DNA of 53,802 nt, from positions 1-53,802 of the IMG/VR virus record IMGVR_UViG_3300024344_000017; one strand, 5' to 3'. Under the pieces are notes generated by a model. That model ran no database searches and was not told the origin of the DNA. It saw only the letters and a program-made list of their open reading frames with translations. This DNA is from a virus. Taxonomy: Duplodnaviria; Caudoviricetes. Of this stretch, positions 24,371-42,182 are shown in pieces. Made by a program: the position numbers and the translations under genes. Every line of letters begins with the position of its first letter. Positions within the stretch are counted from its first letter, which is position 1.

Positions 24371-24913
24371 TTAATGACTGGATATATCTAGCCAATCATT
24401 TAGTTCTTTCGCCAAAGACTCAGTTTCTTTCGGTGTGTTCAAAGAATAATGTTCTATGTTTTTAGCTAGTCTTTGATTAGTGCATATATTGTTTATCTTT
24501 GTTATTCTTGATTTCTTGAATTTTTCTGATTGATTGTCGCCTCTGTGATTATGCCTAAAGTCTAGCGTTTCAGGTATATTCTCTAACACTATAATTCTTG
24601 TGTCATAAGAATTACATAATTTCTCTAAGTTTGTGCCAGTAAATAACCTATCACCCTCAAACAGTATGTTCTTTTCAAACTTATCTATGTATTTATCAAA
24701 GTCGCTTTGAACCGCCATAGAAAGTTTATCTGTCCCTGCGAACACTTCTTGTCTTTCGTATATACCTAAAATACTGATATTCCTTTTAGTTTCAACATAT
24801 CCACGCAACAAACCATACTTAAATTTTGTTTTCGGTTGTATAAACCCCAATAAAGACCTAACTAGTGTTGTCTTACCAGTTGCAGGGACACCGCCTATAG
24901 CTACGCATTTCAT
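24371..24913 (-). CDS. P-loop nucleotide/DNA kinase (putative 5-hydroxymethyluracil-DNA kinase role)
   Basis: GGVPATGKTT Walker A, GTDKLSM, ILFEGDRL; last gene of the modification operon. Confidence 0.75.
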   Translation of the reverse strand: MKCVAIGGVPATGKTTLVRSLLGFIQPKTKFKYGLLRGYVETKRNISILGIYERQEVFAGTDKLSMAVQSDFDKYIDKFEKNILFEGDRLFTGTNLEKLCNSYDTRIIVLENIPETLDFRHNHRGDNQSEKFKKSRITKINNICTNQRLAKNIEHYSLNTPKETESLAKELNDWLDISSH

Positions 24914-25890
24914 AATGTTCCATACTCCAATGTTCCTGTATCTAAGAAAACCTCATATAATTCTTTCCTTATAGCTTTGCTTTCATGTAATGGTTGTTCA
25001 AGCGTTTCTTCTCTTGCGTCCCAAAACACTTGCCAATCTATACCTGCCCAATCATCAGCTTCTACTTTCTTAATTTCTTCTGCTTGTCTATCTAGATAAT
25101 ACCCTAAATATCTACCTTGTTTTTTTCTAAATATCTTTTTGAAGCTACACAAAAGAGTTTCCATTTGGTATAAATCCATATCCACTTTGTATTCTTTTCC
25201 AATTTCTTCTCTAATTCTTAATGCCTGTATTTCTAAGTGCTGTGTAGTTATAGGTTTTAGTTTTTTATTAATAAGTTCATCGTGGCACAAAGCATATAAC
25301 AATCCATTACGATGCGACTTGCTACCGCTATAATCAGATAGTTTTAAGTTATCAGGTAAGACATTTACACCCACACAATCTTTCAATGTTTGCAAATAAT
25401 ACCAAGTAGAGTATCTGCCGAACTTGTGCATATTGAGAATTATGCTTTGCCAAACGAAATCAAAAGACTTTTCTTGTAGCTTATCAAACCTATGTCGCTG
25501 TGTTTTCTCTGGGTTATTGTGCATAATCCATCGTTTATAACTGGCAAATTGGTCTGGTAAATGCCCTTTATTCCATTTCGTGTCAGTTTGATAACGCAAC
25601 CTGTGATAGTTTTCATTGTTCCATTTTTTTAATCTGTTTTGGTCAACCAACTCAAAATCAGGGAACTCATTCCATATAATCCAAGCTGTAGGCAAATGAT
25701 AAGTAGTGCCATATATCCAAGCTATCCAATACTTTTGTTCTATATTGTGCTCATACCTGTCAAATAAATAATTCAACAACCACAATGCAGGGTCGCAGTC
25801 TTTGTGTTCTATAGACCAAACGCACCATTCTTTGAATGCTAATTCTCTATTTTCCTGCAACCTATAATCCACGATACCCTGACTCATCAA
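24910..25890 (-). CDS. Amino acid:DNA transferase / aGPT-pyrophosphorylase-like protein (HhH glycosylase fold)
   Basis: D.DPA..LL, FGRYS.W.Y, ETLLCSFKK, RY.GYY.DR motifs resemble aGPT-Pplase clade 2; sits next to a kinase and a TET/JBP gene. Confidence 0.72.
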   Translation of the reverse strand: MMSQGIVDYRLQENRELAFKEWCVWSIEHKDCDPALWLLNYLFDRYEHNIEQKYWIAWIYGTTYHLPTAWIIWNEFPDFELVDQNRLKKWNNENYHRLRYQTDTKWNKGHLPDQFASYKRWIMHNNPEKTQRHRFDKLQEKSFDFVWQSIILNMHKFGRYSTWYYLQTLKDCVGVNVLPDNLKLSDYSGSKSHRNGLLYALCHDELINKKLKPITTQHLEIQALRIREEIGKEYKVDMDLYQMETLLCSFKKIFRKKQGRYLGYYLDRQAEEIKKVEADDWAGIDWQVFWDAREETLEQPLHESKAIRKELYEVFLDTGTLEYGTL

Positions 25891-26419
25891 ATACTTTTAT
25901 ACAACCGCCTCGCCCATTTTTATAAACAGCAGAATTGATAACAGGGTCTTTTATGTCATATATACCATCAGAGAAAGTTTTACCTGCTATAAGGAACATT
26001 GATAACTGACTTTTAGATTTTTGCTCACCTAACATTATGAAACCTATATTCTTATAAAAATCTACCGCTTCAGGCTCTGCTGATACTCTGAAATATCTAG
26101 CTTTATTTTGAATGGCATACAAAAGACTGTAATTGCAGAGTTTCCTAGCTACACCTTTCCTGCGATGTTTAGCAAAAGTGTGTAGTAGTTGTAAATTAGC
26201 TACTTTTGGCTCTTTTTTAGATATGGTTGTTATAATCGCACCACACAATTCGTTATCTTCTGAATAACCAACACACCTGTTCCAATACTTACCCATGTTA
26301 GCTTTAGAAACGAATGTATGTGCAAATTTATCAGCAACATCTTCTGTAATTGATTCACAGAATGCTTTTTTACTACACCTTGATAAACTCACGAACTTTA
26401 TTGCCTCTGCTTTTATCAT
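25862..26419 (-). CDS. GNAT-family acetyltransferase
   Basis: HRRKGVARKL acetyl-CoA motif A and AVDFYKNIGF motif B. Confidence 0.82.
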   Translation of the reverse strand: MIKAEAIKFVSLSRCSKKAFCESITEDVADKFAHTFVSKANMGKYWNRCVGYSEDNELCGAIITTISKKEPKVANLQLLHTFAKHRRKGVARKLCNYSLLYAIQNKARYFRVSAEPEAVDFYKNIGFIMLGEQKSKSQLSMFLIAGKTFSDGIYDIKDPVINSAVYKNGRGGCIKVFDESGYRGL

Positions 26420-27248
26420 GTTTGGTCTTTTGCCAACCATTGTATTCTTTAATATCCCACACGAATGGTGGGAATTTATAGTCGTAAGAACTCAATATCT
26501 CATATACATTGGGTCCATCATTCAGTGCAGCATCAATGAAGTTTTCAGCAAATTTGAATTGGTCATGTATTTCCCTTTTGTTAGTTGTAGAGCGAAAGCA
26601 CCTAAATTCAATAGTTTCAGTATGTTTTAAACAATAAGTATTGATTGCATATCTGAAAGGTCTGCCCATAGAAACACCATCTTTTCCTGCAGCGTGTAAT
26701 TTAATGTAATGTTCAAAGTTTTCAGCTAAATTTATAATGTTGTTGCACATATATGGTGGCATTTCTCTACCGCCATCATATTTAAGATACATCTTGGCTC
26801 CTTTTGACTTTTGCATAGCTATTCCTGCATCGTAGAAGTTATAAAGCGTAGCTATAGTAAGTGCTTGGTTAGACATAATGTATTTGGTTAGTCGTTTCAA
26901 CGCTTCTATGTCGTTTATCAATTCAGGCACATGAACATGAAGGTGACCATGATTAACACAAGCAGCAGTCGGTGTGTCGCCCTTCTCAACGAAAAAATTG
27001 AACAAATCCATAATAAGTTCTACTTGTTCTTGCCAAGTAGCTGTGGGTTTTGTATTTATCTCACCGCCCATGTGTGGAGTTTCACCTAATGGGTCACATG
27101 CAACATATTGAAAAGGTTCTATAATGTTTACTATATCGGTTTCAGCATATTCCCATTTACCAAACTTTTCAGGTATCTCATGTTTCCTGTTTATATCACC
27201 CCATTCAACCTCATATCCCCATGTAAATTTCTTTTTGTCGTAATTCAT
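26373..27248 (-). CDS. Putative amidoligase (COOH-NH2 ligase, glutamine-synthetase-like fold)
   Basis: TWGYEVE, GGEINT, HGHLHVHV, TIEFRCF motifs. Confidence 0.8.
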   Translation of the reverse strand: MNYDKKKFTWGYEVEWGDINRKHEIPEKFGKWEYAETDIVNIIEPFQYVACDPLGETPHMGGEINTKPTATWQEQVELIMDLFNFFVEKGDTPTAACVNHGHLHVHVPELINDIEALKRLTKYIMSNQALTIATLYNFYDAGIAMQKSKGAKMYLKYDGGREMPPYMCNNIINLAENFEHYIKLHAAGKDGVSMGRPFRYAINTYCLKHTETIEFRCFRSTTNKREIHDQFKFAENFIDAALNDGPNVYEILSSYDYKFPPFVWDIKEYNGWQKTKHDKSRGNKVREFIKV

Positions 27249-27910
27249 TGTAAATCCTCAATAACATCTCTAATTCTTATTTGTTTTAAAGCGTTATTCT
27301 GTATAACATAATCAACACAAGACTCGGTTTTTTCTATTCCGAACCCACTAATACCTGCTCTTTCCAATATATCTTTAGTACTTGCTATGAATGTATCTTT
27401 GTTCGTTTGTGCATAATATAAAGGTCTTTGTTCGTTTCTAAAGAAATGCATAGAAGCTGTGCCTCTTGCATCTATAACTACTGCTGACATAGAACCTTCT
27501 AACCACAAAGCATGAGATTGGTTTTCCCATGCACGCAAGATAATTTCACTATCGCATTTCGTTTCAAATTTGTAGTTGTAGGTATCTTCCCATGTGCTAG
27601 GGTCTGCCTGTGTTATCACACCATTATGAACAACAGCTATATCTTGACTAACTATGGGTTGATTCCACTCAATATCGGAAGTGCTATAACGACAATGCGC
27701 TATCAGCATTTTTGTATATATATTATCAGGTATATCAAATGCATCAGCTGATTTAGGCAAAATGAAATGTTTTATTTTATTAGCATCTTTGTAGTCTATA
27801 TAAGCTAGTCCAGTAGCGTGTTTGCCTCTTATCATTGACTGGTCTAATAGTTTTCTAAATGAATCTATATCTACTCCATCGTTATTATGGACACCTATAA
27901 CTGCACACAT
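27245..27910 (-). CDS. Class II (Ntn) glutamine amidotransferase
   Basis: N-terminal Cys (MCAVIG), RG.HATG, HCRYST, NQP, HNGVI, DSE. Confidence 0.9.
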   Translation of the reverse strand: MCAVIGVHNNDGVDIDSFRKLLDQSMIRGKHATGLAYIDYKDANKIKHFILPKSADAFDIPDNIYTKMLIAHCRYSTSDIEWNQPIVSQDIAVVHNGVITQADPSTWEDTYNYKFETKCDSEIILRAWENQSHALWLEGSMSAVVIDARGTASMHFFRNEQRPLYYAQTNKDTFIASTKDILERAGISGFGIEKTESCVDYVIQNNALKQIRIRDVIEDLQ

Positions 27911-27918
27911 ATAATCCT

Positions 27919-28839
27919 CTACTTATCTATTAGACTTTCACCCTTTTGTCTAGTTTGTGCTCTTTCTATTTCCGCATCTGCGTCTAAACAATGGTGCATT
28001 TTTTCTCTGTAATAACAAACGATTGATATTCTTTCGTATGCTAGTTTTGCTTTAGTTTCTGTATTAGCGTGGTATTCGTGAACATTGAAGAAACAAACAT
28101 CGCCTGAACGAACATCAAACGCTACTCTGTATCTTGGTATTACTGTGTAAGCACCTTCATATTGACCTGCTTCTAATACAGCTAAATTTCCTAAACCTTC
28201 TGCATAATCTCCTGCATCTACATGCAATGCAGTTCTGAAGTTTTTGTTAACAGTTATAGTCGTGAATACAGTATCTTTGATAAGAAAATCTTTGCTTGTT
28301 TTTTCTGCCATAGCTTTTTGATTGGCATATCTTTCAGGACAGGCTTCTGCAAAAAGTTTATCTATATAGTGTATGTATGGATAAGCGTCTTTGAACTGTT
28401 GAAAATTCTTTTCATACCAAGATGTTTGTCGGCAGTAAGGAAACCTAGCGTTCCTATCAAAAAACCCTACAACACCTGAGTTTACTGTATTGGCTCTTGA
28501 GGTATTGCTCAAAGTTCCATCTTTTTTGATACCGCTAAACCTTATTTTACTTAAATCGCCTATGTCCCAATCGGTTTTGGTTTGTTCAGATATTATTCCG
28601 CCTGCAGCACCTCTGTTGTTAGTTGGCGCAGCAGCATTTCTTAATGCTTTCCATGCATCTTTGCATAAACTAGAAGGTATTTTGTTTTTTCTGAAAAAAA
28701 ATAATGGCTCACCATTTTCACCATAGGCATCACAATCATCTCTTATGACTGTGTCGTAGTCTTTTTCTGTTATCCACTCTCCTTTACGCTTTGCTATCTC
28801 TTGTTTTGTGTAGTGTGGTTTTAAATTATAAACTTTCAT
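27919..28839 (-). CDS. TET/JBP-family 2-oxoglutarate/Fe(II) 5-methylpyrimidine dioxygenase
   Basis: FTTITVNKNFRTALHVD (HxD), GD.....H..H.N distal His, RISIVCY (Rx5-aromatic). Confidence 0.88.
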   Translation of the reverse strand: MKVYNLKPHYTKQEIAKRKGEWITEKDYDTVIRDDCDAYGENGEPLFFFRKNKIPSSLCKDAWKALRNAAAPTNNRGAAGGIISEQTKTDWDIGDLSKIRFSGIKKDGTLSNTSRANTVNSGVVGFFDRNARFPYCRQTSWYEKNFQQFKDAYPYIHYIDKLFAEACPERYANQKAMAEKTSKDFLIKDTVFTTITVNKNFRTALHVDAGDYAEGLGNLAVLEAGQYEGAYTVIPRYRVAFDVRSGDVCFFNVHEYHANTETKAKLAYERISIVCYYREKMHHCLDADAEIERAQTRQKGESLIDK

Positions 28840-29452
28840 CTTTATAACACTTCTCCACAGCCATATATATTGTGTCTGTGAGGTTTTCTTGACCCCACTT
28901 TTCTTTCAATCCTGCGACCATTTCCTGAAATACTGGCTCTGTTTCTTGTGTTAAAAAGATATTGACCATACGGACATTGCTCGTTTGTATATCGTCAAAG
29001 TCAGCAATATTAGTTTCTGTTATTATTTCTTCTGGTTCTGTGAACTCTATTAAGTTTTCAGTTAATTTTTCTATTTCTCTAAAATCAAATCCAGTTAAAT
29101 CCATATCAAAATTAGCTTCTGCTAGTTTCGCAAATTCTTCTGATAACATTTCTGTGTCCCACTCAGACGAGTCTTGGCTTTTGTTGTCCATTATCCTGTA
29201 AGCAGTTTTTTGTGCTTCTGTCAGACCTTTTGCTATATGAACAGGTACTTCTTCCATTTCCAACAATCTTGCAGCTTTAATTCTAGTGTGCCCTGCTAGT
29301 ATCACATTTTCTTCATCTACGATAATCGGCACTTTCCAACCGACTTCTTTGATGCTCATAATAACTTTCTCAACAGACTCTTTATTTATACGAGGGTTAT
29401 TCTCATATTCTTTTAATGCCTCTGTTTTCATCATTTGAACATCGTATGCCAT
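28826..29452 (-). CDS. ParB/Srx N-terminal domain protein (no methyltransferase domain)
   Basis: NPR, SI...G...PI.VD, ILAGHTR..AA, AYRI.DNK motifs; GGAG RBS before ATG 29452. Confidence 0.85.
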   Translation of the reverse strand: MAYDVQMMKTEALKEYENNPRINKESVEKVIMSIKEVGWKVPIIVDEENVILAGHTRIKAARLLEMEEVPVHIAKGLTEAQKTAYRIMDNKSQDSSEWDTEMLSEEFAKLAEANFDMDLTGFDFREIEKLTENLIEFTEPEEIITETNIADFDDIQTSNVRMVNIFLTQETEPVFQEMVAGLKEKWGQENLTDTIYMAVEKCYKDESL

Positions 29453-29453
29453 A

Positions 29454-29663
29454 TTATTTCTCCAAATAAAAATCATTGGGCGACACTTGTTCTTTGGTCG
29501 CTATGTAGATTATGTTTAATTCCTTCTTTCTAGGTATGCGTTGACCTAGAATGTATTTAGCTAATGTGCCTTGTGGTAGCGTGTGCCCTGTTTGCTCTTT
29601 CACTTCTTTTATAAAGGCAGACTGGGTGTATTTATTGTCTTTTAAATATTCTGTTAAAGTCAT
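29454..29663 (-). CDS. Cro/XRE-like helix-turn-helix regulator
   Basis: 69 aa; TQ.AF...QGTLAKY..G.RIP...I..AT...V.PNDFY pattern; divergent arrangement with operators upstream. Confidence 0.78.
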   Translation of the reverse strand: MTLTEYLKDNKYTQSAFIKEVKEQTGHTLPQGTLAKYILGQRIPRKKELNIIYIATKEQVSPNDFYLEK

Positions 29664-29671
29664 GTTTTCAC

Positions 29672-29748
29672 TTGCTTATATTCCAATAAGGGATTATACT
29701 TGCTTTATTCCTAAATGGAATTATAGTTAAGAACATTAAATTCGTCAA
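29672..29748. promoter_or_regulatory. Bidirectional control region with two operators and overlapping promoters
   Basis: Operators at 29680-29694 and 29707-29721 (perfect ATTCC-N5-GGAAT); rightward TTGCTT-17-TATACT (29672-29700); leftward TTGACG(29748-29743)-17-TATAAT(29725-29720). Confidence 0.75.
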
Positions 29749-29773
29749 ATGATATTAAAATGAGGAGAATAAA

Positions 29774-30565
29774 ATGAACGATCCATTTCAAATTCATGAA
29801 ATAGAACACCTTTCCCCATCGTCTATCAATACTTTTATTGATGATGTGCCTATGTGGATAATGCGTTATCTTTTTAAGTACAGACATGGTGGAAATCCTG
29901 CAATGTGGAGAGGAACTGTCGTTGACCACGCTGTAGGGAACTTGTATGGCTATAATGAGAAGAATAAGCACCTAACCATACCTGAAGCGTTAAAAGAGTC
30001 TGAGAGAGAGTTTAAGACGCTTAAACACTACTGTAAAAAAGAATACCCTTCACAAACGATAGACGACACAAAATATAAGCGTGAAGGAGCAACAGTAAGC
30101 ACTTATGCAAAAACTGCGCTAGATTTCTATAAGAAGATGGGTAAACCTACTGCTTATCAGAAACAAGTAAACCTATTCATTGAAGATATACCTGTTCCAA
30201 TTATGGGTTATATAGACCTTCAATACCAAGACATTATTAGGGATATAAAGACCACAGGTCGTTTGCCTAGTAAAGTATCTGACGCTCATGCTAGACAGGT
30301 TTCTGTCTATGCTAAAGCAGAAGGATGTTCGCCAGTATTAGACTATGTCTATGTTTCATCTAAGGGAAACGAAGTTGTTACTAGACCTGTTGATAATGTT
30401 GATGAACATATAAATGTGGTAAGAAAAGTATCATTAGCAATAATGAATTTCTTATCTTTTTCAAATGATAAATATGTTTTAGCACAATCTGTTTATCCAA
30501 ATTTTGACGATTGGAAATGGTCAGAAGATGAAATCAAATTCGCTAAAACAATATGGAGTAAATAA
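29774..30565 (+). CDS. PD-(D/E)XK exonuclease (RecB/Cas4-like fold, recombination)
   Basis: HLSPSSIN, RGT.V, GYIDL, DIKTT, Q...Y motifs. Confidence 0.82.
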   Translation: MNDPFQIHEIEHLSPSSINTFIDDVPMWIMRYLFKYRHGGNPAMWRGTVVDHAVGNLYGYNEKNKHLTIPEALKESEREFKTLKHYCKKEYPSQTIDDTKYKREGATVSTYAKTALDFYKKMGKPTAYQKQVNLFIEDIPVPIMGYIDLQYQDIIRDIKTTGRLPSKVSDAHARQVSVYAKAEGCSPVLDYVYVSSKGNEVVTRPVDNVDEHINVVRKVSLAIMNFLSFSNDKYVLAQSVYPNFDDWKWSEDEIKFAKTIWSK

Positions 30566-33416: not shown

Positions 33417-33442
33417 ATAAGTATAAATTGAAGGGGAATAAA

Positions 33443-34321
33443 ATGAAAAAAAATGAAGTGTTCAAAAAAATCCAAACTAAGATTTTAGAACTGATGGAAA
33501 CTGAAGGTACTAATTGGACTAAATCTTGGCTCGGTTGTGGTCGTCCGACCAACGCTATAACTAAAAGACAATACAGAGGTATGAACCACTTTTGGTTATC
33601 AGTTCAAGGTTTCACATCAAACGAATGGGCAACTTTTAAACAATGGTCTAATGCAGGTCACAAAGTTAAGAAAGGTTCAACTGCCAGTCATGTCGTTTTT
33701 TGTGAAGTAAAAGACAAAAAGAAAGAATGGCTTAATGAAAAAGAAAGGGCAGAATTTCTTGAAACTGGCAAATTGCCTAAATACTGGCTTTGGAAAGTAT
33801 TCCCAGTATTCAATGCAGACCAAATAGATGGTTATGTTTCAGACAACATTGTTGAAAATCAAAAAACAGAACTAACTATTGATGAAGCATCAGAAATACA
33901 ATCTTTCATAGATAACTGCAACGCTGAAATAACTCATGGTGGTGATGTAGCTTGTTATATACCTAGTAGTGATAAAATCAATATGCCTGAAATGAAGTCT
34001 TTCTTTTCTGATGTTGATTACTTTTCCACCCTACTGCACGAACTAACTCATTGGACTAGAGAAAAGGGCAGAACTAATAGACAAGACAAAGACCTTGAGT
34101 ATGCTCAAGAAGAACTGGTCGCCGAAATTGGTTCAGCTTTCCTTTGCCAGTTGCTTGGTGTAGAAAAAACTGTAAGACCCGACCATGCTCAATACCTAAA
34201 CGCTTGGAAAGAAAGAATAGCGGATAGTGAAAAAGCAATGATAAGTGCTTTCAGCGATGCACAAAAAGCAGTAGATTTTTTAACTAATTTACAAGAGAAA
34301 AAAGAGAGAGAGGCTGCATAG
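33443..34321 (+). CDS. ardC: ArdC-like antirestriction / ssDNA-binding protein with zincin domain
   Basis: W..P.N....YRG.N, WATFKQW, VKKG, VFNADQ, TLLHELTHWT, YA.EELVAE.GSAF motifs. Confidence 0.85.
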   Translation: MKKNEVFKKIQTKILELMETEGTNWTKSWLGCGRPTNAITKRQYRGMNHFWLSVQGFTSNEWATFKQWSNAGHKVKKGSTASHVVFCEVKDKKKEWLNEKERAEFLETGKLPKYWLWKVFPVFNADQIDGYVSDNIVENQKTELTIDEASEIQSFIDNCNAEITHGGDVACYIPSSDKINMPEMKSFFSDVDYFSTLLHELTHWTREKGRTNRQDKDLEYAQEELVAEIGSAFLCQLLGVEKTVRPDHAQYLNAWKERIADSEKAMISAFSDAQKAVDFLTNLQEKKEREAA

Positions 34322-36998: not shown

Positions 36999-37392
36999 TT
37001 TCTTTTGGTTCAAACATATCTGGATTAGTCAATTCTATCAGATTTTCCATTACTTTTGCAGATGCTCTATTAACTCTAGTTTCTATCAGCTTCGGTTTCA
37101 TCAAAGCAAGATTGTTTAAATCGTGCCTAGCGAATTTGTTTCTTAGTTCTGTTACTGCCCTTTGTGCCTCTGATTTCTCTGCATTGAGTTCGTCTAACTG
37201 TGCTTCGTGTCTTTGTTGGTTCTCTAAATAATTCTTTATAGACTCGTTTTGTTCTTCTATTTTACCTTCAAGAACAATAGCATTACCACGCAAGACAGAT
37301 AACTGTTCACTTAGATATTTAATATACATACCTGAAGCACTTGCAGTTATTACCAACAGACCGCCTAATATCAGACTTAACTTAAACCCCAT
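36979..37392 (-). CDS. Putative i-spanin (Rz-like)
   Basis: N-terminal TM helix plus long coiled coil. Confidence 0.7.
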   Translation of the reverse strand: MGFKLSLILGGLLVITASASGMYIKYLSEQLSVLRGNAIVLEGKIEEQNESIKNYLENQQRHEAQLDELNAEKSEAQRAVTELRNKFARHDLNNLALMKPKLIETRVNRASAKVMENLIELTNPDMFEPKENAENSN

Positions 37393-39151
37393 ATATCCTC
37401 ACAGTATTCGCTTTTCCCTTAACTTTAATATCATTAATATATCTTAAGTCATATTGACTTACATTTGCAGTATTTTCACCGATTAATATATCTTCTTTTT
37501 GTTCTTTCGTAGCACTTTCCAACCTTGCTGCTAGATTAACGCTATCTCCTATAGCTGTGTAATCAAATCTTGTAGCACTACCCATATTGCCAATAACTGC
37601 ATCTCCTGTATTTATACCAATGCCTATAGCAATTTCTGGGAGTCCTTCTTCTAACAACTCTTTGTTTAACTCTTTCATGTTATCTATGATTTGAAACGCA
37701 CAAACGATTGCATTATCTTCATGGTTTTTTTGGTCTAAAGGTGCATTGAATACTGCCATCATGGCATCACCGATATACTTATCTACCATACCACCAGTTT
37801 GTTGCACCGCTTTTTGTTGTGCTGTTAGTGCTTTGTTCATAATATATGTCACTTGTTCAGGCGGTAATGACTCTGACATACTTGTGAACCCTCTGACATC
37901 AGTAAATAGAAAAGTCGCATATCTTTTTTCTCCGCCCAATTTCAACAATTCAGGATTAGATTGCAGTCTTTTTACTTGTTTCGGGTCTAAATAATGTTCA
38001 AATTGTTTTTTAATTTGCTGTCTTAGTAGGTATTGCTGTCTAAAATTGAGATAAAATGCTACTGAACCTGCTATAAATTGGGTTATGAGCGTGTAAGAAA
38101 CATCTATTAGTATGCCTTCTTTAGCAGTATAAACCCCATAAGAGCCTGTTAGAGCCATTATAACTACAAATGATACTAGACCTGAGGTAATGCCTAAAGA
38201 CCTCACTAAGAGCCATATAAGACCTACAGAGAGCAAATATATACACAACTCCAACGCTAAACTATAATCAGGTATATAAGGACTGTTTTGTATCAACAAA
38301 GACTCAGCTAGTGCTGCTTGTATATAATGAGGCTCTAATAATCCAACTGGAGTAGCTACTTGTGGCATTATGCCTTTAGCAGTGACACCTACGAAAACAA
38401 ATTGACCTGCGACCTGCATATCTTTCAAAGATGTTTCATGTGGAACAACCCAAGAAACCCATTTTCTTCCCATACTATCTGTTTTAACAGGCGGAACACC
38501 TTTCACAGTTATTTCTTGTATGCCATTTTGATTAGTTTTGATTATGTATGTATCAGAACCAGTCAACGATTTAAGGACTTGTGTTCCAAAAGAAGCTAAC
38601 CAACCATCAGGAGTCCTATATAACATAGGTATTCTCCTAACTAGATTGTCTATGTCTGCAGGTGCAGATGCTATGCCTTGTAAGGTGTAATCGGTTATTG
38701 GTTCTACATTTTCAACAGTTCCTGCAGAAAGATAGCCACCTATATCTTCTCCTAGAATGACAGTACCAGTAGTTTGCGGATAGTTTTGATTGTTGTTTTC
38801 AAACAAAGCAATAACTGATGGTGATAGACTTAAAGCATTGCTGAACTCTACATCACCACCCATTCTATCTTTGTGTGGGAAACCTATAACCCAACCGACA
38901 CCCATAGCACCTTTGTCTAATAACTGTTGATGTATCTCTGCTAATCTTTGTCTCGGTAAAGGATAACCACCTTCAGCATCAATATCTTCTTCAGTTAAAT
39001 TGAGTATTGCGAAATTACCTGATGGCATAGGTGTTTCTACCAAAGCGTCAAAGGTTTTTAGTTTTATGGTTTCGGTAATACTAGATTGGAATATAAATGG
39101 CAGTGATAATACTGCTAACAATAATAATCCTTGTGAATACTTATTATTCAT
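37382..39151 (-). CDS. CHASE2-domain class III adenylate cyclase (membrane receptor cyclase)
   Basis: TM, periplasmic YPLPR..LA / D.D..VRR.P CHASE2 motifs, 3 TMs, FTDVRGFT, DKYIGDA, GIGINTG, YTAIGD.VNLAARLE. Confidence 0.92.
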   Translation of the reverse strand: MNNKYSQGLLLLAVLSLPFIFQSSITETIKLKTFDALVETPMPSGNFAILNLTEEDIDAEGGYPLPRQRLAEIHQQLLDKGAMGVGWVIGFPHKDRMGGDVEFSNALSLSPSVIALFENNNQNYPQTTGTVILGEDIGGYLSAGTVENVEPITDYTLQGIASAPADIDNLVRRIPMLYRTPDGWLASFGTQVLKSLTGSDTYIIKTNQNGIQEITVKGVPPVKTDSMGRKWVSWVVPHETSLKDMQVAGQFVFVGVTAKGIMPQVATPVGLLEPHYIQAALAESLLIQNSPYIPDYSLALELCIYLLSVGLIWLLVRSLGITSGLVSFVVIMALTGSYGVYTAKEGILIDVSYTLITQFIAGSVAFYLNFRQQYLLRQQIKKQFEHYLDPKQVKRLQSNPELLKLGGEKRYATFLFTDVRGFTSMSESLPPEQVTYIMNKALTAQQKAVQQTGGMVDKYIGDAMMAVFNAPLDQKNHEDNAIVCAFQIIDNMKELNKELLEEGLPEIAIGIGINTGDAVIGNMGSATRFDYTAIGDSVNLAARLESATKEQKEDILIGENTANVSQYDLRYINDIKVKGKANTVRIYGV

Positions 39152-39196
39152 TTTTCTTATATTAGATTATACATTTTATTGATTTTCTTTTTAACA

Positions 39197-40315
39197 TTAA
39201 GAACCTTGTTGTATTTTGATAGTAGTATCACTACCGCCATTAACCTTGATAACATTAGAAACACCATCTTGTATAAAAATAATTGTATATGCACCACTTC
39301 CATCTACATCTACCCTTGCATTACTGCTGACATTTCTTCTGAAACTTATCATCTGTCCTGCAATAATCGTAGTTATCTGCGTATCAGGGTCTTGCCCTAC
39401 TAATGTTCCAGTTATATTTATGCCAGTAGCTTGTGCCAAAACATCTTCTTCGTCATCAATAGCTAAAGCGTCTAAGATATTTAACAAATCCTCAAGGAAA
39501 TTCACATCAAGGTAGTTTATATCCAATTCTGTAAATTCTAAGTCTGCCTCATTGTCCAAAAAATCTTCTGCTAAAAAATCTATATCTAAGTCTGCGAAGT
39601 CCAAATAATCAGCACTACCTGTAGAAGCACTAGCATCTATCATTTGTTCTGTTTGTGCAGGTGGGTTCACTATAAGCATATTGTCTATGAGTTCTAGAGT
39701 TAAATCTAATACGACTGGCGCAGATGGTGAAGTTTCAAACATTGTAGCAGTCGTGGCTTCATAAGGTTTATTTAAGATTACGCTACCCATAGCGGTAGAT
39801 ACCTCTATCTCTCCTGAGGAAATCCCATTAGCATCTGGCAATAAGATAATTAGACTACGACCTAGTTCATCTACAGTAGTAGTAAAATCTGTGCCACGAA
39901 TTGCTATGTTTGCAGTAGGTGTTTTTAAGATGATATTGCGTTTATCTATCTTATTTAGAGAGCCTGTTATAAAACGAGCAGTTCCACTAGCGAAATTGAT
40001 TGCCATTTTCGCTTTGCTAGGGTCTGGGTCATAGATGTATTCGTCTATAACTAAAGAAGAATGTTCAGTTAGCCTAACTACTGAGTCATCTTCAAACTCA
40101 ATAGCAATCCTGCCATTACTGGTTCTTACATCGTCATAACTTTGTATTCCAAAATTTACTGCAGGAATAAAATCGTCCCCACGAATAACTTTTGTATATC
40201 CTTTTAGTTCGCTAACTTGACCTATATCTTCAGCAAGAGGTACTTGTGCCTTGATCGTTTTGCTGAATACAGACAGTGCCATTACTACCAATAGAAATGA
40301 CTTTAAGCCAGTCAT
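39197..40315 (-). CDS. Secreted FecR-domain protein with acidic linker
   Basis: Signal peptide, D.VRT, F.D.S..RL...S, G..RF, TPTA.IAIRGTDF, G.I.V motifs; start probably 40315. Confidence 0.85.
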   Translation of the reverse strand: MTGLKSFLLVVMALSVFSKTIKAQVPLAEDIGQVSELKGYTKVIRGDDFIPAVNFGIQSYDDVRTSNGRIAIEFEDDSVVRLTEHSSLVIDEYIYDPDPSKAKMAINFASGTARFITGSLNKIDKRNIILKTPTANIAIRGTDFTTTVDELGRSLIILLPDANGISSGEIEVSTAMGSVILNKPYEATTATMFETSPSAPVVLDLTLELIDNMLIVNPPAQTEQMIDASASTGSADYLDFADLDIDFLAEDFLDNEADLEFTELDINYLDVNFLEDLLNILDALAIDDEEDVLAQATGINITGTLVGQDPDTQITTIIAGQMISFRRNVSSNARVDVDGSGAYTIIFIQDGVSNVIKVNGGSDTTIKIQQGS

Positions 40316-40940
40316 TATCCAATGTTGACGCTTGGTCAATATTAAATGTTCTGTTTCCGCCTGTATGGTCAAGATAGAAGTATCCGCCTGCATACCCATC
40401 TCCGTCATAAGTTATCGTATTATCTGAACCATCTATATCCATAAAGTTCGTCGCTCCATCTACATCTATAGCTGCTGTAATAGAGTTATCTGAACCTTGC
40501 ACAGTCCAGTCTAAGTCTAATGTTTCAGCCAATGCTGCTATTGCATGATTTAAGGTGAATGTGTTTGAACTTCCAGTAACATTTACTTGCAGATTTGACG
40601 AGTCCGCACTAAAAGTGTTCGTAGGGTCTGTTTGCATATTGAATACATTGCTATCACCAGTAAATTCAAAGAACCCAGTGTAGCTATCTGCCCATATATC
40701 ACCGAGGAATTTGTTTGACGAGCCAATCTGATTTATGTCTAGCAACATAGTTGTGCCATCTAAATCTAAAGCAGTCATAGAACCAGCTTGTGCGTTCGCA
40801 CCACCTATAATGTTTCCACTTCCCATTTGTTCTATATCTATGTTGGAAGTAGCACCACTTTGATCTATAAAGACTTCATTATCAGCTGAATATACAGACG
40901 AAACACAAAGCACCATAAACAACGCTATTATTTTCTTCAT
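40230..40940 (-). CDS. Curlin-like repeat protein (CsgA/CsgB-like)
   Basis: Signal peptide MKKIIALF; repeated (Q/x)-x-G-x-x-N units (IEQMGSGN, INQIGSSN, VQGSDN); adjacent to csgG/csgF. Confidence 0.7.
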   Translation of the reverse strand: MKKIIALFMVLCVSSVYSADNEVFIDQSGATSNIDIEQMGSGNIIGGANAQAGSMTALDLDGTTMLLDINQIGSSNKFLGDIWADSYTGFFEFTGDSNVFNMQTDPTNTFSADSSNLQVNVTGSSNTFTLNHAIAALAETLDLDWTVQGSDNSITAAIDVDGATNFMDIDGSDNTITYDGDGYAGGYFYLDHTGGNRTFNIDQASTLDNDWLKVISIGSNGTVCIQQNDQGTSTSC

Positions 40941-41725
40941 TTTTTCACGCTCCAAAGATTTGCGTCTATACCTTCACGAATTGTTTGGAGTACTGCGGTT
41001 TCTATCGCTGCTTGGAGAGCAATATTGACGGATTCGTTTTCTGTCATACCATTCTCTACTTCAACTAACTCTGTGTCGTTTGCCACAAATCTAAATATGT
41101 CTTGGCTAACTCCAACACTTAATATGTTTTTGGTCACCAAAACTTCAGTTAAAATGCGACCAGTAGATACCGATACTGTGCGTAATGATACTATAACTGT
41201 ATCTTGTCTATACTCTTTGGAACTTCCTATCCCTAAATATCTTGCACCAAATCCGCCTGATTTAACATTGCTCTCATATCCTACTACACTTCCTTCCATC
41301 AGTAAACCTGCAAATCGCAATGGCTTTAGCTGTTGATCTTCTTCAAATGATTCCCTTGTGCTTCTTATTATTTGTCGTTCTCTGGTTAAATTATCTAAAC
41401 CAGTTCGCTCTACTACATGGAAAAAACCACTATGATGTAATGCTCTTATTAGATAGGTCTGCGGTGCTTGAGTTATTGCTGTGCTGAATGTGGCGAATTG
41501 ACTGTTACTTCTTCTTTGTCCAGTATCGTCTTTGAATGAGGTTCCGTATATTGCTACAGTAGGTTTTGTAATCGGCACACCTACTTCTGCTAACTCTCCT
41601 ATTAAAAGAGCATTGATTGTAGCTTCTGTTTTCTTTGGTACTTCTTGTATTTTACCATTGATAGCGCAGCTAGAAAGTAAAACTACCGATAGGAATAGTG
41701 ATAACTGTAACACCACCTGTCTCAT
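40937..41725 (-). CDS. csgG: Curli secretion channel CsgG homologue (lipoprotein)
   Basis: Lipobox LSSC; F.D.TGQR, FSTA.TQ, F.VVER.GL.NL..ERQIIR, GG.GARYLGIG, YR.D.V.VSLR.V motifs. Confidence 0.93.
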   Translation of the reverse strand: MRQVVLQLSLFLSVVLLSSCAINGKIQEVPKKTEATINALLIGELAEVGVPITKPTVAIYGTSFKDDTGQRRSNSQFATFSTAITQAPQTYLIRALHHSGFFHVVERTGLDNLTRERQIIRSTRESFEEDQQLKPLRFAGLLMEGSVVGYESNVKSGGFGARYLGIGSSKEYRQDTVIVSLRTVSVSTGRILTEVLVTKNILSVGVSQDIFRFVANDTELVEVENGMTENESVNIALQAAIETAVLQTIREGIDANLWSVKK

Positions 41726-42182
41726 CGGTAATTGTGAGCGTAATATAATCTCCATCTGTCGTATAACTTATTGTGTTTCCTTCTAATGTTATAGTGCCTT
41801 CTGCACTGGGAGTTTCTCCAAACAAGTTTTCAACAAGCTGTCTGGATAGCTGTGCGTATATACGACTCTCAAGGTTGCGAATGAAACGAGCCAATGTAGT
41901 GTTCTCCGCTTCTCTCTTTAATTCTTCTTGATATGCTTTTATTTCATCTTTAATTGCCTGTTTGCGATTAAATTCTTGATTTTCAATAGTTAAATAATGA
42001 GAACTGGTTCCTACGCCAGAAAAACTAGGACTTTTGAACCTGAATACCATTTCATCGGCTAAAGCAGATTGTATTGATGAAATAAAGACAGCAAAAATTA
42101 TAAACGATATGCCTATAACACCGAACCAATATTCTACTTTTCTATCAGCTTCTATTTGCTTTTTTGTCCTGTTTTTTCTCAT
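41670..42182 (-). CDS. csgF: Curli assembly protein CsgF homologue
   Basis: Signal/TM then MVF.FKSPSFSG, F..NLESRIYAQLS, G...LEG, T.I.IP pattern; upstream of csgG. Confidence 0.82.
   Translation of the reverse strand: MRKNRTKKQIEADRKVEYWFGVIGISFIIFAVFISSIQSALADEMVFRFKSPSFSGVGTSSHYLTIENQEFNRKQAIKDEIKAYQEELKREAENTTLARFIRNLESRIYAQLSRQLVENLFGETPSAEGTITLEGNTISYTTDGDYITLTITDETGGVTVITIPIGSFTF

What the first reader, a model, noticed from the sequence alone, without database searches (positions are those of the whole stretch)
24371..29452. TET/JBP-initiated DNA hypermodification operon with GATase, amidoligase and GNAT: candidate new modified base
Seen: seven tightly packed or overlapping minus-strand genes, ParB-domain > TET/JBP dioxygenase > Ntn glutamine amidotransferase > amidoligase > GNAT > aGPT-Pplase-like amino acid:DNA transferase > P-loop kinase. 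Established: characterised thymidine-hypermodifying phages (e.g. M6, ViI, PaMx11) put 5hmdU into DNA via a dUMP hydroxymethylase, phosphorylate it with a kinase, displace the phosphate with an amino acid using an aGPT-Pplase, then tailor the adduct. Characterised phage TET enzymes mostly pair with a C5 cytosine methylase. I found no hydroxymethylase, cytosine methylase or polymerase here. Inference: the TET/JBP enzyme oxidises thymine in DNA to 5hmU after replication (JBP-like), kinase and transferase add an amine or amino acid, and GATase, amidoligase and GNAT amidate and acetylate it. An alternative is that GATase ammonia gives 5-aminomethyl-U that is then acylated. I know of no biochemically characterised pathway or product for this enzyme set.
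Basis: partly seen in the sequence, partly recalled or inferred. Interest (0 to 1): 0.92.

Follow-up and report, generated by a model that had tools for sequence, protein, structure and literature searches.

The report
Phage thymine hypermodification gene cluster
A tailed phage carries a tightly packed operon that most likely oxidises thymine in its own finished DNA and then builds an amide-type side chain on it; this gene set has been noted in print but its product is unknown, and the glutamine-splitting enzyme appears to belong to the DNA transferase, not to the amide ligase.

Summary
Five pass Pfam cut-offs (ParB_N, Tet_JBP, GATase_6, GNAT, ADDT). The amidoligase and the kinase do not, and were confirmed by remote homology, fold and context. 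The 53.8-kb virus record has no thymidylate-synthase-like hydroxymethylase, C5-methylase, or family A or B polymerase.

The kind is already in print. ParB-dependent phage T-dioxygenases "consistently linked" with GATases, P-loop kinases and AADTs are described in PMC13229309. TET_JBP contigs carrying amidoligase and glutaminotransferase genes of unknown function are described in PMC8989533. I found no identified product.

New here:
- Across 79 distinct GATase loci, GATase and ADDT always travel together where the contig has room (72 with ADDT; the other 7 are cut short).
- The amidoligase is present in only 28 of those 72.
- Natural GATase-ADDT fusion proteins exist.
- A predicted GATase-ADDT complex scores 0.91 against 0.01 for the best control.

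Glutamine-derived ammonia is passed to the transferase, giving 5-aminomethyluracil, which the amidoligase and GNAT then acylate. This chemistry is inferred, not shown.

The parts
29720..29748 (-). Promoter-like site (TTGACG, 17-base spacer, TATAAT) upstream of the small HTH gene; possible operon start
   Evidence: 11 of 12 consensus matches. This is a consensus match only. The region as a whole holds fewer promoter-like sites (18) than its shuffles (mean 25.7).
29454..29663 (-). Small 69-aa protein with a weak helix-turn-helix match; co-oriented and abutting ParB. Possible regulator and first gene of the operon.
   Evidence: HTH_3 E=0.0089, below cut-off. By tblastn it is conserved just upstream of ParB in 12 of the 36 ADDT-found loci at 48-85% identity, with two further weak hits far from ParB. 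Its role is inferred.
28826..29452 (-). ParB-like protein (nucleotide-binding ParB_N domain, no recognisable DNA-binding domain); probable activator of the dioxygenase
   Evidence: ParB_N 30.4 bits; phrog_620 E=8e-51. It overlaps the TET gene by 14 bases. ParB accompanies 42 of the 44 complete short-type TET genes; one of the other two has no room upstream. The function is taken from PMC13229309.
27919..28839 (-). TET/JBP-family Fe(II)/2-oxoglutarate 5-methylpyrimidine dioxygenase (5mYOX); predicted thymine to 5hmU in DNA
   Evidence: Tet_JBP 86.2 bits; phrog_24024 E=3e-77. H206, D208, H254, H257 and R270 are invariant in 18 sequences. It is 52% identical to the ParB-adjacent TET of Pelagibacter phage HTVC112P. 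There is no C5-methylase in the record.
27245..27910 (-). Stand-alone class II (Ntn) glutamine amidotransferase domain; predicted glutaminase subunit of the ADDT
   Evidence: GATase_6 47.1 bits. It starts MC. C2 is kept in 0.99 of 78 sequences, and R74, N96, G97 and D120 in all of them. The complex prediction with ADDT scored 0.91 against 0.01. Fusions P0121 and P0122 join it to ADDT.
26373..27248 (-). Small glutamine-synthetase-like carboxylate-amine ligase (amidoligase); accessory tailoring enzyme
   Evidence: Amidoligase_2 scores only 16.1 bits against a cut-off of 22. A 30%-identical homologue in L019 scores 34.8 bits. The AF2 model has pLDDT 92.3. All listed Foldseek PDB hits are GS, gamma-GCS or YbdK ligases, but weak (best E 7e-3, TM 0.29-0.44). 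Atlas neighbours are Amidoligase_2 clusters, score 0.97. It is present in 28 of 72 loci.
25862..26440 (-). GNAT acyltransferase; accessory tailoring enzyme
   Evidence: Acetyltransf_10 52.4 bits. In 18 of 72 loci it is paired with the amidoligase. 40 of 72 carry a related GNAT ('X') alone. In L076 a GNAT is fused to ADDT.
24910..25890 (-). Amino acid:DNA transferase family protein (ADDT/AADT, formerly aGPT-Pplase)
   Evidence: Pfam ADDT PF18724 74.9 bits; phrog_3271 E=3e-51. It is about 28% identical over 96% of its length to ViI-type homologues in 378 phage records.
24371..24913 (-). P-loop kinase, a distant relative of the 5-hmdU DNA kinase of phage M6
   Evidence: Walker A motif GGVPATGKT. 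phrog_800 E=1.9e-10; M6 gp54 falls in the same PHROG at E=2e-39. hhalign against gp54 gives probability 90.8%, E=1.2e-6, over 92 columns. No Pfam HMUDK family hit is listed. It lies next to ADDT in all 36 ADDT-found loci.

Best explanation
This is a post-replicative thymine hypermodification operon of a tailed phage that has no DNA polymerase, dUMP hydroxymethylase or cytosine methylase of its own.

Step 1 (shown for relatives in print, inferred here): the ParB-like protein activates the TET/JBP dioxygenase, which oxidises thymine in double-stranded DNA to 5-hydroxymethyluracil.

Step 2 (family-level inference): the P-loop kinase phosphorylates the hydroxymethyl group.

Step 3 (my main inference): the stand-alone Ntn glutaminase and the ADDT form one two-subunit amidotransferase. 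Glutamine is hydrolysed at Cys2, and the ammonia, rather than a free amino acid, displaces the phosphate. This leaves 5-aminomethyluracil in DNA.

Step 4 (weaker inference): the amidoligase uses ATP to join a carboxylate to that amine. The most likely carboxylate is the gamma-carboxyl of glutamate, as in its glutamine-synthetase and gamma-glutamylcysteine-synthetase fold relatives. The GNAT then caps the remaining free amine.

The amidoligase and GNAT are an exchangeable tailoring cassette. Related phages carry the same core with a GNAT alone, with an amidoligase alone, or with nothing.
For: Family assignments:
-.

No other route to 5hmU or 5hmC in the record:
-.

Literature:
- ParB-dependent clade C1 phage 5mYOXs oxidise T to 5hmU in vivo and in vitro. 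They are 'consistently linked' with GATases, P-loop kinases and AADTs (PMC13229309).
- The 5-HMUDK-then-AADT chemistry, and the acetylation of 5-aminomethyl-dU by a GNAT in PaMx11, are in PMC8989533.

GATase belongs with ADDT:
1. ADDT-first search: 30 of 36 loci have the GATase, and the other 6 are cut off upstream.
2. GATase-first search: of 79 distinct GATase loci (window included), 72 have ADDT. The 7 without have at most 1821 bases left. Only 28 of the 72 have an amidoligase.
3. The pair also occurs with a different kinase type (HMUD2 plus HMUDK_hel) and no TET within reach (L076, L090).
4. Two fusion proteins carry an N-terminal MC-glutaminase and a C-terminal ADDT. P0121 is 37% identical to the GATase and 35% to the ADDT.
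5. The predicted complex scored ipSAE 0.91, 0.91 and 0.92 against a best control of 0.01. That mark was reached by 58 of 80 solved complexes and 2 of 110 mismatched pairs. The runs agreed in 100% of contacts, and partner pLDDT was at least 92.
6. The PDB holds no sequence relative of ADDT, so the pass is unlikely to be recalled from a like complex.
7. Interface residues include residue 1 and neighbours of the catalytic R74 and N96/G97. They are more conserved than the rest. GATase: 0.84 against 0.41, with 0 of 10000 random sets reaching it. ADDT: 0.78 against 0.59, with 78 of 10000.
8. The glutamine-binding and catalytic residues are kept: C2 in 0.99 of 78 sequences, R74, N96, G97 and D120 in all.

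The tailoring enzymes act on the same DNA base:
- ADDT-GNAT fusion in L076.
- Amidoligase-GNAT-kinase fusions P0124 and P0125.
Against: - No characterised AADT is known to use ammonia. Those in PMC8989533 use glycine, serine or putrescine.
- One fusion, P0123, joins the GATase to the amidoligase rather than to ADDT. In the window these two genes are adjacent, with a 4-base overlap.
- The complex score is the model's own confidence. It was obtained with my own alignments, for which the calibration holds only roughly.
- Part of the conservation of the GATase interface residues is expected anyway, because they lie near the active site.
- The kinase does not reach any Pfam 5-hmdU DNA kinase family. 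Pairwise, it matches M6 gp54 only at the P-loop.
- The amidoligase fold matches are weak (best E 7e-3, TM 0.29-0.44). Nothing here shows its substrates.
- I could not place the TET in the published clade C1, because the reference sequences are in closed supplements.
- No chemistry was measured.
Confidence: 0.6

Rival explanations
1. ADDT installs a free amino acid on phosphorylated 5hmU, as in M6, ViI and PaMx11. The amidoligase, fed with ammonia by the GATase, turns the adduct's carboxylate into an amide. The GNAT acetylates its amine.
For: - All characterised AADTs use amino acids or putrescine (PMC8989533).
- GATase and amidoligase are adjacent, with a 4-base overlap.
- They are fused in P0123, one cluster of 3 member sequences.
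- A DNA-borne carboxylate is amidated by an ATP-dependent ligase in the unrelated CmoY system. Some CmoY relatives carry a glutaminase domain (PMC12783734).
Against: - 44 of 72 loci keep the GATase without any amidoligase, and 4 have no cassette at all. The GATase must therefore have a job in the core.
- GATase-ADDT fusions exist.
- The predicted docking puts the GATase active-site face on ADDT.
Confidence: 0.2
2. The TET oxidises thymine stepwise to 5-carboxyuracil. The amidoligase, with GATase ammonia or another amine, amidates that carboxylate. Kinase and ADDT serve a parallel branch.
For: The characterised phage T-dioxygenases support iterative oxidation (PMC13229309 abstract). ATP-dependent amidation of a base-borne carboxylate has a precedent (PMC12783734).
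Against: Kinase and ADDT are the invariant partners of TET and GATase, while the amidoligase is optional. The amidoligase also occurs fused to 5-hmdU DNA kinases (P0124, P0125), which ties it to the phosphate-displacement route.
Confidence: 0.05
3. The cluster modifies cytosine (5mC to 5hmC and onward), using a host methylase to supply 5mC.
For: Phage TETs of other clades act on 5mC (PMC13229309). A kinase homologue sits next to a HhaI-like C5-methylase and a TET-like gene in Methylophilales phage Melnitz.
Against: There is no C5-methylase in the record, listed at completeness 100. ParB-associated 5mYOXs linked to kinase, AADT and GATase are the thymine subclass in PMC13229309. ADDT-family enzymes characterised so far act on 5hmU.
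Confidence: 0.03
4. The genes are not a DNA-modification pathway. They make a small molecule or modify a protein, as other GATase/amidoligase/GNAT neighbourhoods do.
For: Amidoligase_2, GAT-II and GNAT proteins occur in metabolite and peptide-tagging systems. This is recalled from Iyer and colleagues' work, which was not read here.
Against: Three members belong to families whose characterised members act on DNA: Tet_JBP, ADDT and the 5-HMUDK-like kinase. The tailoring enzymes are found physically fused to ADDT or to 5-hmdU DNA kinases.
Confidence: 0.04

Closest known systems
ParB-dependent clade C1 phage 5mYOX T-dioxygenase clusters (O'Toole et al., PNAS 2026, PMC13229309)
   Same: - A ParB_N protein without a recognisable DNA-binding domain overlaps a roughly 300-aa Tet_JBP gene.
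- There is no neighbouring C5-methylase.
- It is linked with a GATase, a P-loop kinase and an AADT, as that paper states for the subclass.
   Different: That paper characterises only the oxidation step and ParB dependence. It does not mention an amidoligase (0 occurrences) and names no final product. I could not test whether this TET falls in their clade C1, because the sequences are in closed supplements.
Metavirome contigs with TET_JBP + 5-HMUDK + aGPT-Pplase2 + amidoligase/glutaminotransferase (Lee et al., NAR 2021/2022, PMC8989533)
   Same: Same enzyme set. Same proposal that TET replaces the dUMP hydroxymethylase as the source of 5hmU.
   Different: The paper calls the amidoligase and glutaminotransferase genes 'functions not yet known'. 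Here the GATase is assigned to the ADDT as a partner, and the amidoligase and GNAT are shown to be an optional cassette.
PaMx11 pathway to 5-acetylaminomethyl-dU (gp46 glycine:DNA transferase, gp47 FAD lyase, gp48 acetyltransferase, gp49 kinase; PMC8989533)
   Same: Kinase, then AADT, then a GNAT acting on the primary amine 5-aminomethyl-dU. The GNAT-only variants of the present family (40 of 72 loci, and the ADDT-GNAT fusion in L076) would give the same type of product.
   Different: PaMx11 gets 5hmdU before replication and reaches the amine through glycine plus an FAD-dependent lyase. Here there is no FAD enzyme, and a glutaminase is proposed to deliver the nitrogen directly. The window's variant adds an amidoligase. 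The window's GNAT has no tblastn match in 50,697 phage records.
Class II (Ntn) glutamine amidotransferases such as GlmS, PurF and AsnB, and the phage Gat-QueC of 7-deazaguanine DNA modification (recalled)
   Same: - An N-terminal Cys nucleophile right after Met.
- Conserved Arg, Asn-Gly and Asp positions.
- The glutaminase sits N-terminal to the acceptor domain in the fused forms P0121 and P0122.
- The active-site face lies at the predicted subunit interface.
   Different: The acceptor would be a phosphorylated base inside polymeric DNA, bound by an ADDT. I found no such amidotransferase described. Here the two domains are separate polypeptides.
CmoX/CmoY 5-carboxymethylcytosine-glycine amide system of Synechococcus phage S-B43 (PMC12783734)
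   Same: An ATP-dependent amide-bond-forming ligase acts on a modified base in phage DNA. ParB-domain proteins are common in those contigs.
   Different: - The ligase family differs (asparagine-synthetase-like, AMP-forming).
- The base is cytosine.
- The handle is a carboxylate installed by a methyltransferase homologue.
- There is no TET, kinase or ADDT.

Membership tests
Post-replicative thymidine hypermodification pathway (5hmU, then 5-HMUDK, then AADT, then tailoring; Lee et al.) | An amino acid:DNA transferase (Pfam ADDT PF18724) | tested here: met
   74.9 bits against a cut-off of 26.2, residues 40-256. ViI-type homologues occur in 378 phage records.
Post-replicative thymidine hypermodification pathway (5hmU, then 5-HMUDK, then AADT, then tailoring; Lee et al.) | A 5-hmdU DNA kinase (Pfam HMUDK_HMUD1 PF18748 or HMUD2 PF18747) | tested here: inconclusive
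   No Pfam kinase-family hit is listed at E up to 10. The protein falls in the same PHROG as M6 gp54. hhalign probability is 90.8% over the N-terminal 92 columns. gp54 itself is PF18748.
Post-replicative thymidine hypermodification pathway (5hmU, then 5-HMUDK, then AADT, then tailoring; Lee et al.) | A source of 5hmU in DNA | tested here: met
   The dUMP hydroxymethylase family is absent and Tet_JBP is present. That this TET makes 5hmU is inferred from PMC13229309.
Post-replicative thymidine hypermodification pathway (5hmU, then 5-HMUDK, then AADT, then tailoring; Lee et al.) | A modified thymidine in virion DNA | not testable with these tools
   Needs LC-MS/MS of digested DNA.
ParB-dependent 5mYOX T-dioxygenase subclass (PMC13229309) | Tet_JBP domain with the iron and 2-oxoglutarate ligands (H-x-D ... 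H ... R; motif recalled) | tested here: met
   H206, D208, H254/H257 and R270 are invariant in 18 sequences. Tet_JBP scores 86.2 bits.
ParB-dependent 5mYOX T-dioxygenase subclass (PMC13229309) | [quoted passage not shown] | tested here: met
   ParB_N is the only significant domain in a 208-aa protein. The genes overlap by 14 bases. The pairing is kept in 42 loci.
ParB-dependent 5mYOX T-dioxygenase subclass (PMC13229309) | No neighbouring C5 cytosine methyltransferase | tested here: met
   PF00145 is absent from the whole record.
ParB-dependent 5mYOX T-dioxygenase subclass (PMC13229309) | Placement in clade C1 by phylogeny or sequence-similarity network with the characterised enzymes | not tested
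ParB-dependent 5mYOX T-dioxygenase subclass (PMC13229309) | T to 5hmU activity that needs the ParB partner on double-stranded DNA | not testable with these tools
   An experiment is needed.
Class II (Ntn) glutamine amidotransferase | N-terminal catalytic Cys, plus the Arg, Asn-Gly and Asp that bind glutamine (positions assigned by recall of GlmS and PurF) | tested here: met
   The protein starts MC. C2 is kept in 0.99 of 78 sequences, and R74, N96, G97 and D120 in all. GATase_6 scores 47.1 bits.
Class II (Ntn) glutamine amidotransferase | A dedicated acceptor (synthase) domain or subunit | tested here: met
   The GATase is fused to ADDT in P0121 and P0122. The predicted complex scores 0.91 against a best control of 0.01. 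Co-occurrence is invariant. Binding itself is predicted, not shown.
Class II (Ntn) glutamine amidotransferase | Ammonia transfer from glutamine to the acceptor | not testable with these tools
   Needs 15N tracing and a Cys2 mutant.
Amidoligase_2 / glutamine-synthetase-like COOH-NH2 ligases | Match to Pfam PF12224 above the cut-off | tested here: not met
   The window protein scores 16.1 bits against 22, on its C-terminal 33 residues only. A 30%-identical homologue in L019 scores 34.8 bits. P0125 scores 21.7. Membership therefore rests on transitive homology.
Amidoligase_2 / glutamine-synthetase-like COOH-NH2 ligases | Glutamine-synthetase / gamma-glutamylcysteine-synthetase type fold | tested here: inconclusive
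   The model has pLDDT 92.3. Every listed Foldseek hit is a GS, gamma-GCS or YbdK ligase, but none has E at or below 0.001, and TM is 0.29-0.44. Atlas neighbours are Amidoligase_2 clusters, score 0.97.
GNAT acyltransferases | GNAT domain above the Pfam cut-off, with the acyl-CoA loop (R/Q-x-x-G-x-G/A; motif recalled) | tested here: met
   Acetyltransf_10 scores 52.4 bits. The sequence HRRKGVA is seen at residues 92-98.

The most novel reading that the evidence does not exclude
The stand-alone glutaminase and the ADDT together form a previously undescribed glutamine-dependent amidotransferase. Its acceptor is a phosphorylated base inside duplex DNA, and its product is 5-aminomethyluracil, made without the glycine and FAD-lyase detour of PaMx11. 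In this phage both products of glutamine hydrolysis would be used. Ammonia goes to the ADDT. Glutamate is ligated by the GS-like amidoligase to the new amine, and the GNAT then N-acetylates it. The result would be a new base such as 5-(N-acetyl-gamma-glutamyl-aminomethyl)uracil. Sister phages with other cassettes would make a graded series of related bases.
Probability: 0.25. Interest if true: 0.8.

Novelty: new member of a known kind. Interest (0 to 1): 0.58.

Why it matters
Phage DNA hypermodifications blunt restriction and CRISPR defences and supply enzymes for DNA chemistry. The TET-initiated, GATase-bearing clusters are abundant in viromes. At least 564 GATase relatives were found in IMG/VR, and 638 amidoligase homologues were returned. 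They have been flagged twice in print as uncharacterised.

This analysis does not reveal a new kind of system. It turns an unexplained gene list into an ordered, testable pathway with three parts:
- a two-subunit glutamine-dependent DNA aminase as the invariant core;
- a swappable acylation cassette;
- natural fusion proteins (P0121, P0122, P0124, P0125 and the L076 ADDT-GNAT) that are convenient single-chain starting points for biochemistry.

If the core reaction is confirmed, it would be the first amidotransferase found to act on a base in polymeric DNA.

Tried and rejected
- DNA-level search of the operon against 50,697 phage records found only the ParB-TET pair of Pelagibacter phage HTVC112P. 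No cultured phage with the full set was found.
- tblastn of the GNAT against phages gave no match.
- The amidoligase gave two phage matches (Vibrio phage 2.275.O and phage Simon). Neither has ADDT, kinase or TET nearby.
- Profile searches of the PDB were uninformative for the amidoligase, empty for ADDT, and gave only P-loop matches for the kinase.
- Pairwise BLAST of the kinase and the ADDT against M6 gp54 and gp51 gave only the P-loop or nothing significant.
- A scan of 185,579 species genomes with the ADDT alignment found no relative. That gave no host or prophage lead.
- Promoter and terminator scans gave one good promoter-like site but no enrichment.
- Iyer et al. 2013 (NAR 41:7635) could not be read. 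What I say of it is recalled.
- Supplements are closed. Fig. 2 sequences 22-25 of PMC8989533, and Fig. 3 and Dataset S10 of PMC13229309, may include this contig or close relatives. I could not check.
- I considered and rejected the idea that the GATase serves only the amidoligase (see the rivals). I also rejected the idea that the 'X' protein is unrelated to GNATs: hhalign gives 93.5%, and 9 of 10 members hit Acetyltransf_1.

Full report
**What is there.** The window is a whole virus record of 53,802 bases, listed at completeness 100 (CheckV's estimate). It is a tailed phage.
- It has a portal protein, large terminase, major capsid protein, prohead protease and a tape-measure-like protein.
- It has a replication initiator and a primase-helicase.
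- Between 24371 and 29452 lie seven co-oriented minus-strand genes that overlap or nearly abut.
- Pfam places five of them above curated cut-offs: ParB_N, Tet_JBP, GATase_6, GNAT (Acetyltransf_10) and ADDT, the amino acid:DNA transferase formerly called aGPT-Pplase.
- A small co-oriented gene with a weak HTH match (29454-29663) abuts ParB. It is conserved there in close relatives. It is preceded by a good promoter-like site. It may be the first gene of the operon.

**The two weak assignments: amidoligase.**
- The 291-aa 'amidoligase' scores below the cut-off for Amidoligase_2: 16.1 bits against 22, on its C-terminal 33 residues only.
- A 30%-identical homologue in the same position in locus L019 scores 34.8 bits.
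- The family has 638 homologues. Their invariant residues are acidic, histidine and arginine: E13, E15, E63, H102, H104, R196, R199, E214 and R216.
- An AlphaFold2 model with pLDDT 92.3 retrieves only glutamine synthetases, gamma-glutamylcysteine synthetases and YbdK-type ligases from the PDB. The scores are weak: best E 7e-3, TM 0.29-0.44.
- The nearest named ESM Atlas clusters are viral Amidoligase_2 clusters, score 0.97.
- I accept it as a small GS-like carboxylate-amine ligase.

**The two weak assignments: kinase.**
- The 180-aa P-loop protein hits no Pfam 5-hmdU DNA kinase family.
- It falls in phrog_800 (E=1.9e-10). The biochemically characterised 5-hmdU DNA kinase M6 gp54 falls there too (E=2e-39).
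- That PHROG, M6 gp54 and the Cr30 homologue all carry the label 'terminase small subunit', which looks like a misnomer.
- A profile of 18 relatives aligns to gp54 with hhalign probability 90.8% over 92 columns. The aligned stretch includes the P-loop motif and an LFEG motif that I read, from recall, as Walker B.

**What is absent.** The record has no thymidylate-synthase-like gene (the family of the dUMP hydroxymethylases), no C5 cytosine methylase, and no family A or B DNA polymerase. The phage must be copied by host enzymes from ordinary dTTP. Any 5hmU therefore has to be made on the polymer.

**What is already known.** This gene association is in print.
- Lee et al. (PMC8989533; passages read) describe metavirome contigs that lack a dUMP hydroxymethylase and carry TET_JBP next to 5-HMUDK and aGPT-Pplase2. 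[quoted passage not shown]
- O'Toole et al. (PMC13229309; abstract and sections 5, 12 and 13 read) show that phage clade C1 5mYOXs are thymine dioxygenases acting after replication. One subclass needs a ParB homologue lacking a DNA-binding domain. That subclass 'is consistently linked with' GATases, P-loop kinases and AADTs.
- In four literature searches I found no paper that identifies the product or assigns a role to the GATase or the amidoligase.

**Comparative anatomy: ADDT-first search.**
- A search of IMG/VR with ADDT gave 36 loci at 59-90% identity.
- All 36 have the kinase immediately after ADDT.
- 30 have the GATase. The 6 without are cut off upstream.

**Comparative anatomy: GATase-first search.**
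- A search with the GATase alignment matched at least 564 relatives, and the best 80 were kept.
- Profiles built from my alignments were run over all loci.
- This gave 79 distinct GATase loci, the window included.
- 72 of them contain ADDT. The 7 that do not have at most 1821 bases of contig left.
- 66 of the 72 have this kinase family.
- Of the other 6, 4 have at most 499 bases left after ADDT. The other two (L076, L090) carry the other kinase type, HMUD2 plus HMUDK_hel, and no TET within reach.

**The variable cassette.** The segment between GATase and ADDT differs between loci.

| Cassette between GATase and ADDT | Loci (of 72) |
|---|---|
| Amidoligase + GNAT (as in the window) | 18 |
| Amidoligase + a weak GNAT-like match | 5 |
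| Amidoligase alone | 5 |
| A single ~205-aa protein 'X' | 40 |
| Nothing | 4 |

- 'X' is itself a GNAT. 9 of 10 members hit Acetyltransf_1, and hhalign to the window's GNAT family gives 93.5%.
- In L019 the amidoligase is followed by a low-molecular-weight phosphatase instead of a GNAT.
- The core is therefore TET (with ParB), GATase, ADDT and kinase. Amidoligase and GNAT are exchangeable tailoring genes.

**Whose partner is the GATase?** Five lines point to ADDT.
1. The co-occurrence above. 44 of 72 loci have the GATase without any amidoligase.
2. Fusions. A search for longer relatives of the GATase returned two proteins of 560 and 555 aa.
   - Each has an N-terminal MC-glutaminase and a C-terminal ADDT domain.
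   - P0121 residues 1-191 are 37% identical to the GATase, and residues 227-540 are 35% identical to the ADDT.
   - This is the domain order of classical class II amidotransferases, as I recall it.
3. A complex prediction of ADDT with the GATase, both given as alignments.
   - It scored 0.91, 0.91 and 0.92, against 0.01 for the best of three controls.
   - That mark was reached by 58 of 80 solved complexes and 2 of 110 mismatched pairs.
   - The runs agree in 100% of their contacts, and partner pLDDT is at least 92.
   - The calibration holds only roughly, because I supplied my own alignments.
   - The PDB has no sequence relative of ADDT, so a pass from memory of a like complex is unlikely.
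   - This is a model's confidence, not a measurement.
4. The interface.
   - On the GATase side it contains residue 1 and residues next to the catalytic R74 and N96/G97.
   - On the ADDT side it contains R45, E47, N49, E51 and N74-D78.
   - Across 78 and 77 sequences the interface positions are more conserved than the rest.
   - GATase: 0.84 against 0.41, with 0 of 10000 random sets reaching it. ADDT: 0.78 against 0.59, with 78 of 10000.
   - In ViI-type ADDTs, whose fetched neighbourhoods show no annotated GATase, these motifs differ.
5. The glutaminase is intact. C2 is kept in 0.99 of 78 sequences, and R74, N96, G97 and D120 in all. I match these to the Cys1, Arg, Asn-Gly and Asp of GlmS and PurF from recall. 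They bind free glutamine by its alpha-amino and alpha-carboxyl groups.

**Evidence the other way.**
- The same kind of search with the amidoligase found one GATase-amidoligase fusion, P0123 (527 aa, one cluster of three member sequences). The two adjacent genes are joined end to end there.
- This keeps open the possibility that the GATase also feeds the amidoligase, or that all these enzymes work as one assembly.
- The same search also found amidoligase-GNAT-kinase fusions in two arrangements, with two kinase types (P0124 with HMUDK_HMUD1, P0125 with HMUD2).
- L076 has ADDT fused to a GNAT.
- Together these fusions tie every tailoring enzyme to the DNA-base pathway.

**Mechanism proposed.**
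1. ParB-activated TET converts T to 5hmU in DNA. This is shown for relatives and inferred here.
2. The kinase makes 5-phosphomethyl-U. This is a family-level inference, with weaker homology than I would like.
3. GATase plus ADDT replace the phosphate with glutamine-derived ammonia, giving 5-aminomethyl-U. This is my main inference.
   - The amine is the same intermediate that PaMx11 reaches through glycine and an FAD lyase before its GNAT acetylates it (PMC8989533).
   - That explains why most sister loci need only a GNAT, and why some need nothing more.
4. In the window's variant the GS-like amidoligase joins a carboxylate to that amine and the GNAT caps the remaining amine.
   - Glutamate is my guess for the carboxylate. 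It rests only on the fold relatives, which activate the gamma-carboxyl of glutamate.
   - Glutamate is also the other product of the glutaminase.
   - This last step is speculative.

**Verdict.** The novelty claim is reduced: this is a new member of a published but biochemically uncharacterised class. Together these make the open question of the product directly testable.

Noticed in passing
window 37382-41755 (minus strand): A CHASE2-sensor adenylate/guanylate cyclase (37382-39151), a FecR-domain protein (39197-40408) and a CsgG-family outer-membrane lipoprotein (40937-41755) sit together inside the phage genome. Each matches a PHROG of unknown function (phrog_35576, phrog_37870, phrog_20175), so the trio recurs in phages.
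   Followed up: no
window 33428-34321 (+): An ArdC-like anti-restriction protein with ArdcN and a zincin-like MPTase-PolyVal domain. This looks like a second anti-defence function beside the DNA modification.
   Followed up: no
window 4677-11654 (minus strand): A single 2325-aa ORF next to tail-region genes. I did not analyse it.
   Followed up: no
L001 (Pelagibacter phage HTVC112P, MN698246) 7947-9481: This cultured phage has the ParB-TET pair (TET 52% and ParB 42% identical to the window's). Its TET is annotated 'DnaJ chaperone / SNF2 DNA repair protein'. An FkbM-family methyltransferase follows instead of GATase, ADDT and kinase. It is a tractable isolate for the ParB-dependent oxidation step.
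   Followed up: partly
phrog_800; M6 gp54 (L040 16686-17249); Cr30 gp114 (L039 5986-6531): The characterised 5-hmdU DNA kinase M6 gp54, its PHROG and the Cr30 homologue are all labelled 'terminase small subunit'. The label looks wrong and will hide these kinases in phage annotations.
   Followed up: partly
L038 (Methylophilales phage Melnitz) 2448-6528: A HhaI-like C5 methylase, a TET-like gene (27% identical to the window's TET), a 427-aa unknown and a homologue of the window's kinase (31%) lie in a row. This looks like a cytosine-based counterpart that uses the same kinase family.
   Followed up: partly
L039 (Caulobacter phage Cr30) 664-1893 and 5986-6531: Cr30 has an ADDT homologue (28% identity; gp123, 'hypothetical') about 4 kb from the kinase homologue. 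This suggests an unrecognised thymidine hypermodification in a cultured Caulobacter phage.
   Followed up: no
L081-L119 (for example L089 4619-5998): In the more distant GATase loci the TET ORF is about 435-460 aa (stop to stop), with the Tet_JBP domain at residues 236-379. No ParB gene was detected: 8 loci have room upstream and 5 do not. The N-terminal 230 residues are unassigned and might replace ParB.
   Followed up: partly
L019 204-1570; L043 (phage Simon, PQ683277) 8028-9309: A second amidoligase type is paired with a low-molecular-weight phosphatase (LMWPc). In L019 the pair sits between GATase and ADDT. In the sewage phage Simon the pair has no ADDT, kinase or TET within 8 kb.
   Followed up: partly
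L044 (Vibrio phage 2.275.O, MG592671) 5866-11074: An amidoligase homologue (25% identity) lies next to 7-deazaguanine genes (QueF-like, queuosine biosynthesis protein, GTP cyclohydrolase I) and a 'nucleophile aminohydrolase'. The ligase family may also tailor modified guanines.
   Followed up: no
P0124 (942 aa), P0125 (697 aa), L076 3477-5060: Natural multi-enzyme fusions exist: amidoligase-GNAT-HMUDK_HMUD1 kinase, GNAT-amidoligase-HMUD2 kinase, and ADDT-GNAT.
   Followed up: partly
window 29711-29971 (minus strand) against 29774-30565 (+): An 86-aa minus-strand ORF is conserved at 41-51% in close relatives. It overlaps the predicted start of the plus-strand PD-(D/E)XK nuclease gene and contains the promoter-like site at 29720-29748. 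The gene boundaries here are unresolved.
   Followed up: no
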